Source: a bacterium
Lineage (GTDB): Bacteria > Patescibacteriota > CPR2 > UBA1875 > JAJYID01
DNA: 64,000 nt
Direction of reading: 5' to 3'
Assembly: GCA_021787535.1 (NCBI GenBank)
Contig: JAJYLR010000002.1
Coordinates: 24,556 to 88,555 of the forward strand
This document shows, piece by piece, positions 4,470 through 50,908 of this stretch. The translations under genes and the position numbers were made by a program. Within the stretch, counting starts at the first letter, position 1; the number at the start of each line of letters is the position of its first letter. Under the pieces are notes generated by a model. It did no database searches, was not told the DNA's origin, and was given only the letters and a program-made list of their open reading frames with translations.

Positions 4470-5555
4470 ATGGATATAAAAGAGTTAATAATAAAGAGAT
4501 TGAATACTGCGGGTGAGGTTCGGGTTGCTGATATTGTAGATGAAACATCTTTCTCCCGAAAATACATTCACCGTTTTTTTGATGAACTTCAGAAGGAAAA
4601 TAAGATAGCAAAAATTGGCACGACAAAGGCTGCCAGGTATGTATTTTCCAGTCATCAAAAGGTTTTTGAAGCTAAAAAAAATATTATAAAGATAGATCTT
4701 CTTTTAAAAAATAGAGGGCTCAAAGAAGATTTGGTTGAAGATAAAATCAAGGAAGATACGGGTATCTTTATCGGATTATCAAAAGAAGTGAAGGCAGCGG
4801 CAGACTTTGCTTTCTTGGAAATACTTAACAACGCTATTGAGCACTCAAAAAGTGAAAACATTCGCGTCACTATGTCGAGGATGGAAAACAAGCTTATTTT
4901 TGACATTTTTGATTGGGGAGTAGGCGTATTTGCCAGTATTAGAAAAAAGAAGGGGCTCCAAAATGATCTTGAAGCTATCCAAGATCTTTTAAAAGGAAAG
5001 GAAACAACTAACCCGGCAAGACACACGGGGCAAGGAATTTTTTTTACTGCGCGTATCGCTGATAGGTTTATTCTATATAGTTCGAAAAAAAAGCTGATTT
5101 TTGATAATAATATCGATGATGTTTTCTTGAAAGATTCTCCCGCCAGAAAGGGTACAAGGGCTCATTTTGAAGTTGCTCTGGATACAAAGAAGAAATCGGA
5201 AGAAATTTTTAGGCGTTATTCGGATCCTGACTCTTATGAATTCTCAAAAACCGAGGTAATGATCCATCTCTACAAAATGGATATTGGCTACATATCTCGT
5301 TCTCAGGCGAGAAGAGTAACGGCGGGGCTTGAAAAATTTAAATCGGTCGTGTTGGACTTTAGCAGGGTGGATACGATTGGACAAGGTTTTGCCGATGAAG
5401 TTTTTCGCGTATGGCAGAAAAGGAATCCGAAAACAAGGATCTCCTATAAAAATGCTGATGAAAATGTGCAGTTTATGATAGAGCGTGCAAAATCAGATTT
5501 AAAGAATCATTTTGATCGGCACCAAAAAAAACAAAACAAAGATATTGACAAATGA
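4470..5555 (+). CDS. wHTH - GHKL (RsbW/SpoIIAB-like HATPase_c) - STAS-like (DUF4325-type) fusion regulator
   Basis: N-terminal winged-helix-like region. GHKL N-box EILNNAIEHS, G1 DWGVG, G2 GQGIFF. C-terminal about 100 aa STAS-like segment (VVLDFSRVDTIGQGFADEVF). Confidence 0.6.
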   Translation: MDIKELIIKRLNTAGEVRVADIVDETSFSRKYIHRFFDELQKENKIAKIGTTKAARYVFSSHQKVFEAKKNIIKIDLLLKNRGLKEDLVEDKIKEDTGIFIGLSKEVKAAADFAFLEILNNAIEHSKSENIRVTMSRMENKLIFDIFDWGVGVFASIRKKKGLQNDLEAIQDLLKGKETTNPARHTGQGIFFTARIADRFILYSSKKKLIFDNNIDDVFLKDSPARKGTRAHFEVALDTKKKSEEIFRRYSDPDSYEFSKTEVMIHLYKMDIGYISRSQARRVTAGLEKFKSVVLDFSRVDTIGQGFADEVFRVWQKRNPKTRISYKNADENVQFMIERAKSDLKNHFDRHQKKQNKDIDK

Positions 5556-5691
5556 GCTGTTTTATGATATCTTAATATAACCGATTCTCGAAAATCGGAG
5601 CAAGCAAGTTCTTTGAAAATAATTGAGATGTATGTTTCCCTGTTTTTCCGCCTATTGGCGATTCCGATATTCAAACAAAGGAGTGATTTGC

Positions 5692-48248: not shown

Positions 48249-50018
48249 ATGGAGGCGCATAAAACAGTTGCAAAAAAGCAAAACCAAAGCTGGCGTGAAG
48301 ACAAAAGAGTAATGTATGGATACATTGCCTTATTTGTCTTGGCTCTTATCTATGTCGACGCGCTTTTTTATAATTCCGTAAGGTATGAAGATAGAATTTA
48401 TCCCGGGATAAAGATTGCCGGCACAGATGTAGGGGGGGAAACTAGAGAAGAGGCGGCTCGGCGGATTGCTGAAAAAGTAAAATCCTCCAGCAGTGATATT
48501 GTTTTGAAAGGAAGCCACAGTTACACATTTAGCAAGGAAGATTTGGGTGTTGCCTATGATATCCCAAAGACTGTCGATCATGCTTTTAGCATAGGCAGAG
48601 ACAATGATTTAAATCCGATTAAAAAATATCACGAGGATGTGCCCTTGGCGGTGAATCTTGATTCTGATAAAGTCACAGGTGCTCTGATGGATGTTACCCA
48701 AAAAGAGAATCGAGGTGTTGAAGATGCAAGTGTTTTCATGAGAAACGGCAAACTTCAAACCGAGAAAGAACAAATTGGCAAACGTGTTCTTCTAGGAGAA
48801 AATGTCCGGATGATCCAGGACGGACTTAGCGGACTTGATGATAGTTTTAATCTCAAAATCCGCAATATGGATCCTGCTGTTACAGGGGCGGATATTAACT
48901 CGGCGAAAGATCAGATTCAAAACGCCTTGTCGCAAAAGCTTGTTCTTCAAAATGTCGGGGAAAAATATGTTTTAAATGAGAAAGATATCGCCGGTTTTCT
49001 CTCTTTTCAGTCAAGCAGCAGCAGTTCCCTTGCATATGCTACCAATTTCTCGCAAATTTTTCCGAATGTTGTTCAGGCAGTTCGGGTATCATATGACAGA
49101 AAGGCGATCAGGGATTGGGCGGTTAGGTTTTCCGGCCACATAAACCAGGATCCGAAAAATGCAAAGTTGGCTATGAACGAAGGGGGCTTAACCGTTGTCG
49201 CTTCGAGCAAAGATGGGGTGAAAGTTAATGCAGAAGAACTAACCGATCGGATAAAAGACGCTCTGGTTAATCAAAAACAAACTGTCGATGTTCCTGTTGA
49301 TACCATAAAACCTGAGGTCTCAAGCGATAATTTGGATAAGCTGGGCCTGAAAGAACTAGTTTCGACCGGCTGGACTGACTTCTCTGGTTCGCCGGCGAAT
49401 AGAATTCATAATATTCAAGTCGGTGCGGCAAAATTTAATGGAGTTCTTATAAAACCGGGCGAGGATTTCTCGTTTGACGATACTCTGGGTAATGTTGATG
49501 CTTCTACCGGTTATTTGCCGGAGCTGGTGATACTCAAGGATAAAACAGTGCCTGAGTACGGCGGGGGGCTTTGCCAAGTGTCGTCGACTGCTTTTCGGGC
49601 GGCGCTAAATGCGGGTCTGCCTATTTTAGAACGAGCTGCACATGCTTATCCAGTCGGATACTATAAGCCATATGGGGTTGATGCTACTATTTATCTGCCT
49701 TCTCCGGATTTAATCTTCAAAAATGACACGCCGGGATACATTCTCATTCAAACCAGAATTGCCGGCAACAAACTTTATTTTGATTTCTACGGCACCAAAA
49801 AGCCGGGAAGCATCAAATTTGCCGGTGACGAGAACGCTACTCAGGGAGTTTCATCTACAGTAGAAGGTATTACCCCGACTATTACAGAACAAGACGCGCG
49901 TGGCCCCAAATCTTTTACGGCTACCTTTTACAGGTTTATTTATGATACGGCCGGCAATCTGATCAAGAAAAACTATTGGGTTTCCAAGTACGATTCTCCG
50001 GACAAATACCCTCATTAG
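48249..50018 (+). CDS. VanW-family protein with N-terminal TM anchor
   Basis: C-terminal VanW core (FSFDDTLGNVDASTGYLPELVI..EYGGGLCQVSSTAFRAALNAGLPILERAAHAY). Confidence 0.8.
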   Translation: MEAHKTVAKKQNQSWREDKRVMYGYIALFVLALIYVDALFYNSVRYEDRIYPGIKIAGTDVGGETREEAARRIAEKVKSSSSDIVLKGSHSYTFSKEDLGVAYDIPKTVDHAFSIGRDNDLNPIKKYHEDVPLAVNLDSDKVTGALMDVTQKENRGVEDASVFMRNGKLQTEKEQIGKRVLLGENVRMIQDGLSGLDDSFNLKIRNMDPAVTGADINSAKDQIQNALSQKLVLQNVGEKYVLNEKDIAGFLSFQSSSSSSLAYATNFSQIFPNVVQAVRVSYDRKAIRDWAVRFSGHINQDPKNAKLAMNEGGLTVVASSKDGVKVNAEELTDRIKDALVNQKQTVDVPVDTIKPEVSSDNLDKLGLKELVSTGWTDFSGSPANRIHNIQVGAAKFNGVLIKPGEDFSFDDTLGNVDASTGYLPELVILKDKTVPEYGGGLCQVSSTAFRAALNAGLPILERAAHAYPVGYYKPYGVDATIYLPSPDLIFKNDTPGYILIQTRIAGNKLYFDFYGTKKPGSIKFAGDENATQGVSSTVEGITPTITEQDARGPKSFTATFYRFIYDTAGNLIKKNYWVSKYDSPDKYPH

Positions 50019-50122
50019 AAAATTTTCAATTTTCAAGTAACAATTTTCATTGAAATATCAGTCTCCCAAATTCCAAAGCATCAGGATAGTACACTAAACT
50101 GGTTTAGTGTACCAAAAAAGTA

Positions 50123-50306
50123 TTGCAAATGGATGATGGCTAAGATATAATTGCTTTTGTGAAAAGAAGAATGATTCAAACAAAATACTGGTTTACCTTC
50201 AGGGCTTAGCTTTGTAGGTTTCATATTTGTTGAATCAAAAGTAAGAGTCCTGCAAAGCGGGGCTATTTTTAATTCGAAAATAGCCCTTTTGTTGCAGGAT
50301 TTTTTG
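50123..50306 (+). ncRNA. candidate small RNA: sigma70 promoter, about 150-nt ORF-poor transcript, intrinsic terminator
   Basis: TTGCAA, 17 nt, TATAAT at 50123-50151. Terminator hairpin CCTGCAA..GGGCTATTTT/AAAATAGCCC..TTGCAGG at 50249-50298 followed by TTTTTT. Only a 12-codon ORF lies inside. Confidence 0.3.
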
Positions 50307-50343
50307 TACCTTTAAAAACAAGATTTCGGAGGAAACTAGAAGA

Positions 50344-50580
50344 ATGACAATGTTTTGCCAAGGAAAAATCAAGGTTGAATTCGGAAAGAAAGGGGTGAGT
50401 GTTTTGGATGACACAATCAGGAGAATTCTTGAGGCGCGCGTCAGAAATGCTGTTCGAGGGTACTATCATGCGAATGGGAACAAGGATGAAAAAATGAGCG
50501 AGCTGCTAGAATGCTCCAGTGAATTTCTGGCAAAAGGCGGTACTCTTGAAGAGCTGGAAAGTCTTACAAGCGGCAAGTAA
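50344..50580 (+). CDS. small hypothetical protein (78 aa)
   Basis: GGAGG RBS 11 nt upstream. No recognisable motifs. Confidence 0.35.
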   Translation: MTMFCQGKIKVEFGKKGVSVLDDTIRRILEARVRNAVRGYYHANGNKDEKMSELLECSSEFLAKGGTLEELESLTSGK

Positions 50581-50590
50581 AGGGGAATTG

Positions 50591-50800
50591 ATGTTTTATA
50601 TGAAAAGCGATAATGCTCCGATAATCGTTAGTGATTCTTTGACGGTAGAAGACTATGTCCGGCAGTTTCTTCAGTCGAGAAAAGCAGATAAGATAGTCCA
50701 AATGAGGAAACCAGGGCATAGACTGATTGAATTATTTTCAACATATACTGTTGATGAGATTCGCGCTCTTTTCGTCGAAATCGAAAAGGAAGTTTCTTGA
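50591..50800 (+). CDS. small hypothetical protein (about 69 aa)
   Basis: Follows the previous small ORF after a 10-nt gap. No recognisable motifs. Confidence 0.3.
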   Translation: MFYMKSDNAPIIVSDSLTVEDYVRQFLQSRKADKIVQMRKPGHRLIELFSTYTVDEIRALFVEIEKEVS

Positions 50801-50812
50801 GTGAAACGCCAA

Positions 50813-50840
50813 GGGCCGTCCGGTAACTGCCGGACGGCCC
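50813..50840 (+). terminator. GC-rich perfect hairpin (11-bp stem)
   Basis: GGGCCGTCCGG-taactg-CCGGACGGCCC after the small ORF pair. Weak U-tract, so may act as a transcript-stabilising or terminating structure. Confidence 0.45.
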
Positions 50841-50908
50841 AAAATCTTTGGATTGATTTTTTACGCTATTTTCGCTATAATATTCCAGTATTTGCACCTC
50901 AAAAATAA

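What the first reader, a model, noticed from the sequence alone, without database searches (positions are those of the whole stretch)
50123..50306. Promoter-plus-terminator unit with no ORF: candidate small RNA between vanW and a small-ORF pair
TTGCAA-17-TATAAT at 50123-50151 is followed about 100 nt later by a long GC-containing hairpin (7-bp outer and 10-bp inner stem, 50249-50298) and a T6 run. The only ORF inside is 12 codons (MIQTKYWFTFRA) with a weak RBS. The hairpin is perfectly symmetric, so it could also terminate convergent transcription.
Basis: seen in the sequence. Interest (0 to 1): 0.5.

Follow-up and report, generated by a model that had tools for sequence, protein, structure and literature searches.

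The report
Conserved attenuator leader before two small genes
The promoter-plus-terminator unit is real, but it is most likely an on/off transcription switch with a tiny leader ORF, controlling two orphan small-protein genes in a narrow group of Patescibacteria, and it matches no catalogued RNA family.

Summary
TTGCAA-17-TATAAT (50123-50151), a hairpin at 50172-50237, a nested terminator hairpin (50243-50299) and a T6 run (50300-50305) are all present. The roughly 150-nt RNA folds far better than shuffles (z = -5.9).

The "free-standing sRNA" reading is probably incomplete, for four reasons:
- **Conservation.** Nine distinct variants in related Patescibacteria contigs keep the unit at 85% mean nucleotide identity. 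That exceeds vanW (70%), ORF1 (65%) and ORF2 (55%).
- **Linkage.** The unit is present or absent together with the two small ORFs, not with vanW.
- **No other promoter.** No other promoter-like site lies between the terminator and ORF1.
- **Alternative pairing.** The 3' strand of hairpin 1 (50209-50218) can pair with the 5' strand of the terminator (50249-50258). This 10-11-bp antiterminator is kept in 9 of 9 variants.

The micro-ORF is really 16 codons. It starts at a GTG or ATG always 7 nt after the -10 box. It always stops in the loop just before the antiterminator strand, which is the geometry of a trp-type attenuator.

My best reading is a ribosome-mediated, possibly leaderless, transcription attenuator (confidence about 0.5). 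Translation of the ORF and the signal it senses are inferred, not shown. There is no Rfam match, and ORF1 and ORF2 are orphans. I class it as a new member of a known kind.

The parts
50123..50151 (+). Sigma-70-type promoter: -35 TTGCAA (50123-50128), 17-nt spacer, -10 TATAAT (50146-50151).
   Evidence: In 9 variants the hexamers (TTGCAA, TTGCAT or TTGTAA, and TATAAT) and the 17-nt spacing are kept while the spacer sequence differs.
50159..50209 (+). Leader micro-ORF of 16 codons, (M)KRRMIQTKYWFTFRA. It starts at GTG 50159, 7 nt after the -10 box, so the mRNA may be leaderless. There is an internal ATG at 50171 and the stop is TAG 50207-50209. The invariant codons UGG UUU ACY lie at 50189-50197.
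   Evidence: In 9 of 9 variants a GTG (6 variants) or ATG (3 variants) lies exactly 7 nt after TATAAT, in frame with the invariant internal ATG. The stop is TAG or TAA at the same place. The only two indels in the ORF (both in L020) are 3 nt long.
50172..50237 (+). Hairpin 1, the anti-antiterminator. The lower stem pairs 50172-50179 with 50230-50237. The apical stem pairs segment 1 (50195-50205) with segment 2 (50209-50219). The loop, 50206-50208, holds the first two bases of the stop codon.
   Evidence: Fold. 84-91% of cells are paired across 9 variants, with 3 compensatory pairs in the lower stem.
50209..50258 (+). Antiterminator alternative: segment 2, GCUUUGUAGG (50209-50218), pairs with segment 3, CCUGCAAAGC (50249-50258).
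   Evidence: 99% of cells are paired in 9 variants against 33-53% when the partner is slid. The duplex is -24.7 kcal/mol against -13.6 +/- 2.8 for shuffles; 0.1% of shuffles reach it. It forms in 9 of 9 nascent RNAs when a ribosome is placed on UGG.
50243..50305 (+). Intrinsic terminator. The outer stem is segments 3 and 4, 50243-50255 with 50292-50304. An inner stem-loop spans 50259-50287. The T6 run is 50300-50305.
   Evidence: The outer stem is 89% paired with 4 compensatory pairs and the inner stem is 98% paired. The U-run is 4-6 nt long in all variants.
50306..50312 (+). Invariant GUACCUU directly after the T-run. Its role is unexplained.
   Evidence: Identical in 9 of 9 variants. The region has no significant local fold.
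50344..50580 (+). ORF1, 78 aa, with SD GGAGG at 50329-50333. It is an orphan small protein and the first regulated gene.
   Evidence: There are no hits in Pfam, NCBIfam, PHROGs or PADLOC, and only one weak PDB match, to a designed helical-repeat protein, E = 1.7e-4. Only 3 representatives exist among 1.84 billion proteins.
50591..50800 (+). ORF2, 69 aa. It is an orphan small protein and the second regulated gene.
   Evidence: No family hits.
50813..50840 (+). GC-rich hairpin at the 3' end of the cassette, just before the tRNA-Asn promoter (50853-50881).
   Evidence: It is present in every locus that carries the cassette through its 3' end and absent in L014 and L015.

Best explanation
The unit is a transcription attenuator: a 5' leader that decides whether RNA polymerase reads on into ORF1 and ORF2.

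**Layout.** Transcription starts about 7-8 nt after the TATAAT box, at or next to the GUG at 50159. The first roughly 150 nt can adopt two mutually exclusive folds:
- OFF: hairpin 1 (segments 1:2 plus a lower stem) together with the full terminator (segments 3:4 plus the U-run).
- ON: segment 2 pairs with segment 3. This opens the base of the terminator stem next to the U-run.

**Proposed switch.** I propose that the choice is made by a ribosome translating the 16-codon leader ORF.
- A ribosome that stalls on the invariant Tyr-Trp-Phe-Thr codons (50186-50197) covers segment 1 and frees segment 2. The antiterminator then forms before segment 4 is made, so polymerase reads through.
- A ribosome that reaches the stop codon (50207-50209) covers segment 2, so the terminator forms.
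- With no ribosome, hairpin 1 and the terminator form.

**Shown.** The promoter, both hairpins, the terminator, the conserved alternative pairing, linkage to ORF1 and ORF2, and retention of the ORF.

**Inferred.** The transcription start site, translation of the ORF, ribosome coupling, and the signal. The signal could be supply of aromatic aminoacyl-tRNA or a more general slowing of translation.
For: 1. The leader is the most conserved DNA in the locus: 85% mean identity against 70% for vanW, 65% for ORF1 and 55% for ORF2.
2. Structure is supported across variants. 88% of cells are paired, there are 7 compensatory pairs, 0 of 500 shuffles reach the covariation score, and slid controls give 43-55%.
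3. The antiterminator (segments 2:3) is kept at 99% pairing in 9 variants and is stronger than 99.9% of shuffles. Segments 2 and 3, which must each pair two ways, are almost invariant, while segment 4 varies.
4. Constraint folding behaves as the model predicts. With a ribosome on UGG, 10 of 10 antiterminator base pairs form in 9 of 9 nascent RNAs. With a ribosome on the stop codon, none form. The full RNA without a ribosome gives hairpin 1 plus terminator in 9 of 9.
5. The cassette of leader, ORF1 and ORF2 is present or absent as a unit between vanW and tRNA-Asn.
6. No promoter-like site lies between the terminator and ORF1.
7. The ORF is retained. The GTG or ATG is fixed 7 nt after the -10 box, the internal ATG is invariant, and the stop (TAG or TAA) is always in the loop before segment 2. 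Both indels in the ORF are 3 nt. The only change inside the invariant UACUGGUUUAC block is a synonymous TAC to TAT.
8. Only the 5' (coding) side of the internal loop of hairpin 1 is conserved; the 3' side varies in sequence and length.
9. Leaderless-looking genes exist in the same window, for example 6590 (TTTACA-18-TATAAT-6-ATG with no SD).
10. Leaderless leader peptides predicted to act in transcription attenuation have been reported in Deinococcus deserti (PMC4007540).
Against: - There is no experimental transcript or translation data.
- The Shine-Dalgarno sequence before the internal ATG is weak or absent (GAAAAGAAGA; AAAAUAAAA in L012 and L017).
- A 5'-terminal GUG is a poor leaderless start codon in model bacteria (PMC4007540, discussion).
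- The leader has only single Tyr, Trp and Phe codons, not a run. L020 has lost the Tyr codon.
- The downstream genes have no known link to aromatic amino acids.
- Codon-substitution counts do not favour the ORF frame: frame 0 has 5 synonymous and 23 non-synonymous state pairs, and frame 2 has 9 and 20.
- The antiterminator has no double compensatory change, because both strands are nearly invariant.
- All nine variants come from one narrow clade, so the covariation counts are few and phylogenetically dependent.
- In 4 of 9 variants the nascent RNA already favours the antiterminator without any ribosome, so a ribosome is not strictly required by thermodynamics.
Confidence: 0.5

Rival explanations
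1. The unit is a ribosome-independent attenuator. Hairpin 1 would be a small aptamer or protein-binding site, for example for the ORF1 or ORF2 product in autoregulation, or for a metabolite. Occupancy would stabilise segments 1:2 and so favour the terminator; without the ligand the near-isoenergetic 2:3 antiterminator would win.
For: The same three-helix competition applies. In nascent RNA without a ribosome, 1:2 and 2:3 are nearly balanced: 5 variants favour 1:2 and 4 favour 2:3, as in OFF riboswitches. There is an invariant single-stranded block, UACUGGUUUAC. The codon statistics give no support for translation, and the SD is weak.
Against: There is no match to any Rfam riboswitch, T-box or leader family. 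Only one side of the internal loop is conserved, while the opposite strand varies in sequence and length; this is unusual for a ligand pocket. Start and stop codons, the 3-nt indels and the fixed distance from the -10 box to the start codon would all be coincidences. The conserved unpaired A-rich 5' tail has no role in this model.
Confidence: 0.25
2. The unit is a stand-alone trans-acting small RNA of about 147 nt. The downstream ORFs would be expressed only incidentally by leaky read-through.
For: The unit has its own conserved promoter and a strong terminator, and it forms a very stable, conserved two-hairpin RNA. Terminated attenuator RNAs can act in trans, as rnTrpL does (PMC6614838).
Against: The RNA is strictly linked to ORF1 and ORF2 and absent where they are absent. 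ORF1 has no other promoter-like site. The conserved antiterminator complementarity has no purpose in a pure sRNA. Sequence after the terminator, up to the ORF1 SD, is also conserved. No second copy or obvious target was found in the 64-kb window.
Confidence: 0.12
3. The unit is ordinary punctuation. The hairpin would simply be the vanW terminator, the promoter-like site would be a constitutive promoter, and hairpin 1 would have no function.
For: In five variants the vanW stop codon abuts or overlaps the -35 box, so vanW transcripts must run into this terminator.
Against: Relatives without the cassette have no such terminator after vanW. Identity of 85% across the whole 150 nt, compensatory changes in hairpin 1, and the conserved 2:3 pairing are not expected for a mere terminator.
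Confidence: 0.05

Closest known systems
Classical leader-peptide transcription attenuators of amino-acid operons (trpL, pheL, hisL, thrL, ilv and leu leaders; Rfam Trp_leader, His_leader and others)
   Same: A short promoter-proximal ORF is present. There are four segments with mutually exclusive 1:2, 2:3 and 3:4 pairings. The stop codon lies between segments 1 and 2. An intrinsic terminator precedes the first structural gene.
   Different: There is no sequence or covariance-model match. The leader has no run of regulatory codons, only one each of Tyr, Trp and Phe. The regulated genes are two orphan small proteins, not biosynthetic enzymes. The host is a Patescibacteria-group organism. The ORF probably starts at or next to the 5' end of the transcript.
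Leaderless short ORFs acting as attenuators: predicted leaderless leader peptides in Deinococcus deserti (PMC4007540) and polycysteine leaderless sORFs in mycobacteria (bioRxiv 10.1101/834739)
   Same: An AUG or GUG lies at the distance from the -10 box expected for a 5'-terminal start codon. A tiny sensory ORF is the first cistron of an operon. A paused ribosome remodels the downstream RNA structure.
   Different: The mycobacterial elements unmask a ribosome-binding site, which is translational control, and they are Cys-rich. Here the read-out is an intrinsic terminator and the conserved codons are aromatic. The transcription start site here is inferred, not mapped.
Ribosome-stalling attenuators induced by translation inhibitors (erm and cat leaders; bmrCD, vmlR and lmo0919-type leaders; from my own knowledge)
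   Same: A short uORF plus terminator/antiterminator competition reports on ribosome speed rather than on a metabolite.
   Different: Those elements precede recognisable resistance genes (methyltransferases, ABC-F proteins, efflux pumps). ORF1 and ORF2 have no such similarity.
Attenuator-derived small RNAs such as rnTrpL of Sinorhizobium meliloti (PMC6614838)
   Same: The prematurely terminated leader is itself a stable, conserved small RNA of about 150 nt that could act in trans.
   Different: No target or trans activity was examined here.

Membership tests
Leader-peptide (ribosome-mediated) transcription attenuator | An intrinsic terminator lies between the promoter and the first structural gene, and that gene has no other promoter. 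| tested here: met
   The terminator is at 50243-50305. No promoter-like site lies between 50306 and 50343. The U-run is 4-6 nt long in all 9 variants.
Leader-peptide (ribosome-mediated) transcription attenuator | Mutually exclusive pairings exist: 1:2 (anti-antiterminator), 2:3 (antiterminator) and 3:4 (terminator). | tested here: met
   1:2 is 91% paired, 2:3 is 99% and 3:4 is 89% across 9 variants. The 2:3 duplex is beaten by only 0.1% of shuffles.
Leader-peptide (ribosome-mediated) transcription attenuator | A short ORF has its stop codon placed so that a terminating ribosome masks segment 2 and a ribosome stalled upstream masks segment 1. | tested here: met
   The stop codon, 50207-50209, overlaps the first base of segment 2. 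Constraint folding with ribosome footprints gives the expected outcomes in 9 of 9 variants. The footprint size of +14 nt is an assumption.
Leader-peptide (ribosome-mediated) transcription attenuator | The leader ORF is actually translated. | not testable with these tools
   The evidence is indirect only: start and stop codons are retained, the indels are 3 nt, and the distance from the -10 box to the start codon is fixed. The codon-substitution pattern is uninformative and the SD is weak.
Leader-peptide (ribosome-mediated) transcription attenuator | The leader has a run of codons for the amino acid whose pathway the operon serves. | tested here: not met
   The leader has single Tyr, Trp and Phe codons only. 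The Tyr codon is lost in L020. The downstream genes have no assignable function.
Leaderless sORF attenuators | The transcription start coincides with the start codon. | tested here: inconclusive
   A GTG or ATG lies exactly 7 nt after TATAAT in 9 of 9 variants, which is compatible with a 0-1-nt 5' UTR. No TSS data are available.
Any curated Rfam family (riboswitches, T-box, ribosomal-protein leaders, amino-acid leaders, sRNAs) | The score reaches the family's gathering threshold. | tested here: not met
   The only window hits at gathering threshold are tRNAs. The best sub-threshold hits in 49950-50450 score no more than 21 bits against thresholds of 39-140.
Trans-acting sRNA | It is an independent transcription unit that acts on targets elsewhere. 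| not tested
   It is an independent unit in form, but it is always fused upstream of ORF1 and ORF2. No target search was done.

The most novel reading that the evidence does not exclude
The invariant Trp-Phe-Thr core of the 16-residue leader peptide, or the one-sided conserved loop of hairpin 1, could be a new sensor. It might be a ligand-dependent ribosome-arrest peptide or a small new aptamer. Either would let these host-dependent, auxotrophic Patescibacteria switch on a pair of lineage-specific small proteins in response to a host-derived cue. That would be a regulatory RNA class with no catalogued relative, together with a new two-protein module.
Probability: 0.15. Interest if true: 0.7.

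Novelty: new member of a known kind. Interest (0 to 1): 0.45.

Why it matters
My two literature searches surfaced no described attenuator or riboswitch from Patescibacteria (CPR), a group that cannot be cultured alone. Here a 150-nt leader is the most conserved sequence of its locus. It has the full terminator/antiterminator logic and a probably leaderless sensory micro-ORF.

If it is confirmed, it would show that ribosome-coupled attenuation operates in these reduced genomes. It would also point to two orphan small proteins that the cell regulates tightly. In practical terms, it warns annotators: a gene caller has already called a 98-aa "protein" that starts inside this leader (P0002 in L004).

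Tried and rejected
- **Rfam.** Neither the gathering-threshold search of the whole window nor a permissive E-value search of 49950-50450 gave a credible family. T-box and riboswitch membership is rejected.
- **Loose hairpin-1 pattern in viral contigs.** It gave 3 chance matches inside coding DNA.
- **Metagenome pattern scan.** It added only one new variant (L008). It also returned a near-duplicate (L009), a duplicate of L004 (L011) and one chance hit (L010).
- **Covariance model R1.** It found no second copy in the 64-kb window or elsewhere in the loci, so there is no regulon evidence.
- **Codon-position test.** The synonymous versus non-synonymous count did not discriminate between frames.
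- **ORF1 and ORF2 function.** Pfam, NCBIfam, PHROGs and PADLOC gave nothing; the only PDB-sequence match below E = 0.01 was a designed helical-repeat protein, which I disregarded. The homologue searches found almost nothing. Single-sequence AlphaFold models were of too low confidence (pLDDT 53 and 67) to justify fold searches, so none were run.
- **Region after the terminator.** A fold of 50296-50360, looking for an SD-sequestering hairpin, gave nothing significant.
- **Convergent-terminator idea.** Rejected, because there is no minus-strand U-tract and no convergent gene.

Full report
**1. What is in the sequence.**
The interval between the vanW-family gene and the first small ORF is 325 nt. 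vanW is 48249-50018 and matches PF04294 and PF12229. ORF1 is 50344-50580. The interval holds these features:
- -35 TTGCAA at 50123-50128, a 17-nt spacer, and -10 TATAAT at 50146-50151.
- A nested hairpin at 50243-50299.
- T6 at 50300-50305.

RNA 50155-50310 folds at -53 kcal/mol against -31 +/- 3.7 for dinucleotide shuffles, z = -5.9. The promoter match alone is at chance level. Its reality rests on the comparison with relatives below.

**2. Relatives.**
I collected 13 related loci through VanW homologues and one DNA-pattern scan (genome scan; protein search; contig look-ups; pattern scan). They come from unclassified and Patescibacteria-group MAGs and metagenomes. Their VanW proteins are 57-67% identical to the one in the window.

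Nine distinct versions of the element exist: window, L001/L003, L002/L016, L004/L009, L008, L012, L017, L020 and L021. In all nine:
- The hexamers (TTGCAA, TTGCAT or TTGTAA, and TATAAT) and the 17-nt spacing are kept while the spacer differs.
- A GTG or ATG follows the -10 box after exactly 7 variable nucleotides.
- The next roughly 150 nt are 85% identical on average. The last 300 nt of vanW are 70% identical, ORF1 65% and ORF2 55%.

The non-coding leader is therefore the most constrained DNA in the locus.

**3. Linkage.**
The order H+-PPase, DUF3006, VanW is shared by most of the loci. In L014 and L015, vanW is followed directly by the tRNA-Asn promoter. In L013, L018 and L022, other genes follow it. 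None of these loci has the RNA.

Wherever the RNA is present, homologues of ORF1 and ORF2 follow it. The one exception is L004, where ORF1 is truncated. A GC-rich hairpin then closes the cassette in every locus whose sequence extends that far. So the RNA belongs to the ORF1-ORF2 cassette, not to vanW.

Only 38 nt separate the T-run from ORF1, and no promoter-like site is scored there. ORF1 and ORF2 can therefore be expressed only by reading through this terminator.

**4. Structure and the alternative pairing.**
On a model-fitted alignment of the nine variants:
- 88% of cells are paired.
- 7 pairs show compensatory changes: 3 in the lower stem of hairpin 1 and 4 in the outer terminator stem.
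- 0 of 500 column shuffles reach the covariation score.
- Slid controls give 43-55%.

The caveats are that the alignment was fitted to the model, there are few sequences, and they come from one clade.

The key finding is a third helix. GCUUUGUAGG (50209-50218) is the 3' strand of the apical stem of hairpin 1. It is complementary to CCUGCAAAGC (50249-50258), the 5' strand of the outer terminator stem. The evidence for this pairing:
- It is kept in 99% of cells across the nine variants, against 33-53% when slid. One-sided changes preserve the pairs: U-A to U-G, U-G to U-A or C-G, and A-U to G-U.
- In the window the best duplex between hairpin 1 and the 5' half of the terminator is -24.7 kcal/mol. 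Shuffles give -13.6 +/- 2.8, and 0.1% are as good.
- The two segments that must pair two ways are almost invariant, whereas the 3' half of the terminator drifts. This is the pattern expected of an antiterminator switch.

When the antiterminator forms, only the inner stem-loop remains. That stem-loop is then about 15-20 nt from the U-run. In most variants it is followed by UUUGCC, which is a poor terminator.

**5. The micro-ORF.**
Across the nine variants:
- The first codon is GTG in six and ATG in three.
- The internal ATG is invariant.
- The stop is TAG or TAA at the same position.
- The only two indels, both in L020, are +3 and -3 nt.
- The only change inside the invariant UACUGGUUUAC block is TAC to TAT, which is synonymous.

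The stop codon sits in the apical loop and shares its last base with segment 2.

I modelled a ribosome by blocking everything up to 14 nt beyond the first base of the A-site codon:
- A ribosome on UGG gives the full 10-bp antiterminator in the nascent RNA in 9 of 9 variants.
- A ribosome on the stop codon gives none.
- The complete RNA without a ribosome gives hairpin 1 plus the terminator in 9 of 9.

This is the geometry of trp-type attenuation.

The conserved unpaired A-rich 5' tail fits a coding or initiation constraint on that strand. So does the fact that only the 5' side of the internal loop is conserved.

The window also holds genes that look leaderless, such as 6590 with TTTACA-18-TATAAT-6-ATG and no SD. 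Leaderless leader peptides predicted for transcription attenuation, and leaderless sensory sORFs, are documented in Deinococcus deserti (PMC4007540) and in mycobacteria (10.1101/834739).

**6. Weak points.**
- Translation is not shown.
- The SD is weak or absent, and a 5' GUG is a poor leaderless start in model organisms (PMC4007540).
- Synonymous and non-synonymous counts do not single out the ORF frame.
- There is one codon each of Tyr, Trp and Phe, and L020 lacks the Tyr codon.
- ORF1 and ORF2 have no detectable relatives outside this clade and no family, and their models are of low confidence. The logic of what is being sensed is therefore open.
- Without a ribosome, the nascent RNA is nearly balanced between 1:2 and 2:3. 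A ligand- or protein-controlled switch would fit that equally well.
- The invariant GUACCUU after the T-run is unexplained.

**7. Comparison with known systems.**
No Rfam family matches. The element works like classical leader-peptide attenuators. It meets their structural criteria but not the "run of regulatory codons" criterion. It resembles leaderless sORF attenuators in the placement of its start codon, but it uses an intrinsic terminator as its read-out. The terminated product would be a stable RNA of about 147 nt, so a secondary trans role, as for rnTrpL (PMC6614838), remains possible.

**8. Verdict.**
- **Observation:** confirmed.
- **Interpretation as a stand-alone sRNA:** only partly supported.
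- **Most likely identity:** a cis-acting terminator/antiterminator leader of ORF1 and ORF2. I estimate about 0.8 that it is an attenuator of some kind and about 0.5 that it is ribosome-mediated through the micro-ORF.
- **Novelty:** a new, uncatalogued member of a known kind, in a lineage where I am aware of few described regulatory RNAs.
- **Interest:** moderate.

Noticed in passing
window 50089-50112: A perfect 11-bp hairpin, GTACACTAAAC-TG-GTTTAGTGTAC, lies between the vanW stop and the leader promoter. It is followed by an A-run, not a T-run. Similar hairpins occur at the same place in L001, L002/L016, L019 and L021 but not in L004, L008, L012, L017 or L020. It is a single copy in the window.
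   Followed up: partly
L002 6755-6900; L016 5258-5420 with GIY-YIG ORF 5412-5663; L020 3850-4000; L003 2040-2180: The tRNA-Asn gene downstream of the cassette is interrupted after TCCCGGGTAGC in L002/L016 and after TCCCGGGTAG in L020. The insertion carries a GIY-YIG endonuclease-like ORF. L003 has a GIY-YIG-like remnant between the tRNA promoter and an intact tRNA.
   Followed up: no
L004 1404-2412 compared with L009: The two loci have identical leaders. In L004 the C-terminus of ORF1 is replaced, ORF2 is missing, and a radical-SAM gene follows directly. This looks like a recent rearrangement. L012 also has a radical-SAM/B12-binding gene about 1.6 kb downstream.
   Followed up: no
L004 1295-1591 (protein P0002): A gene caller annotated a 98-aa protein that starts inside the leader, so its first ~36 residues are translated from the terminator and the untranslated stretch before ORF1. 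The real ORF1 starts at about 1404. This is a misannotation caused by the element.
   Followed up: yes
window 6590, 44744 and 10049 (+ strand): These long ORFs have an ATG 6-9 nt after a TATAAT or TAAAAT box, with no upstream in-frame start and no Shine-Dalgarno sequence. This suggests the organism uses leaderless mRNAs.
   Followed up: partly
window 50813-50840: A GC-rich 11-bp hairpin, GGGCCGTCCGG...CCGGACGGCCC, lies at the end of ORF2. It is followed by AAAATC rather than a T-run. It is conserved in every locus that carries the cassette through its 3' end and absent from loci without the cassette. Whether it acts as a terminator is unclear.
   Followed up: no
window 50306-50312: An invariant GUACCUU follows the terminator T-run directly in 9 of 9 variants, and I have no explanation for it. 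It could pair with the ORF1 SD or with AGGUA of segment 2, but no significant fold was found.
   Followed up: partly
L012 5241-5585: In L012 the second gene of the cassette encodes a longer protein of 114 aa. It shares only the MFYM N-terminus with the other ORF2 proteins.
   Followed up: no
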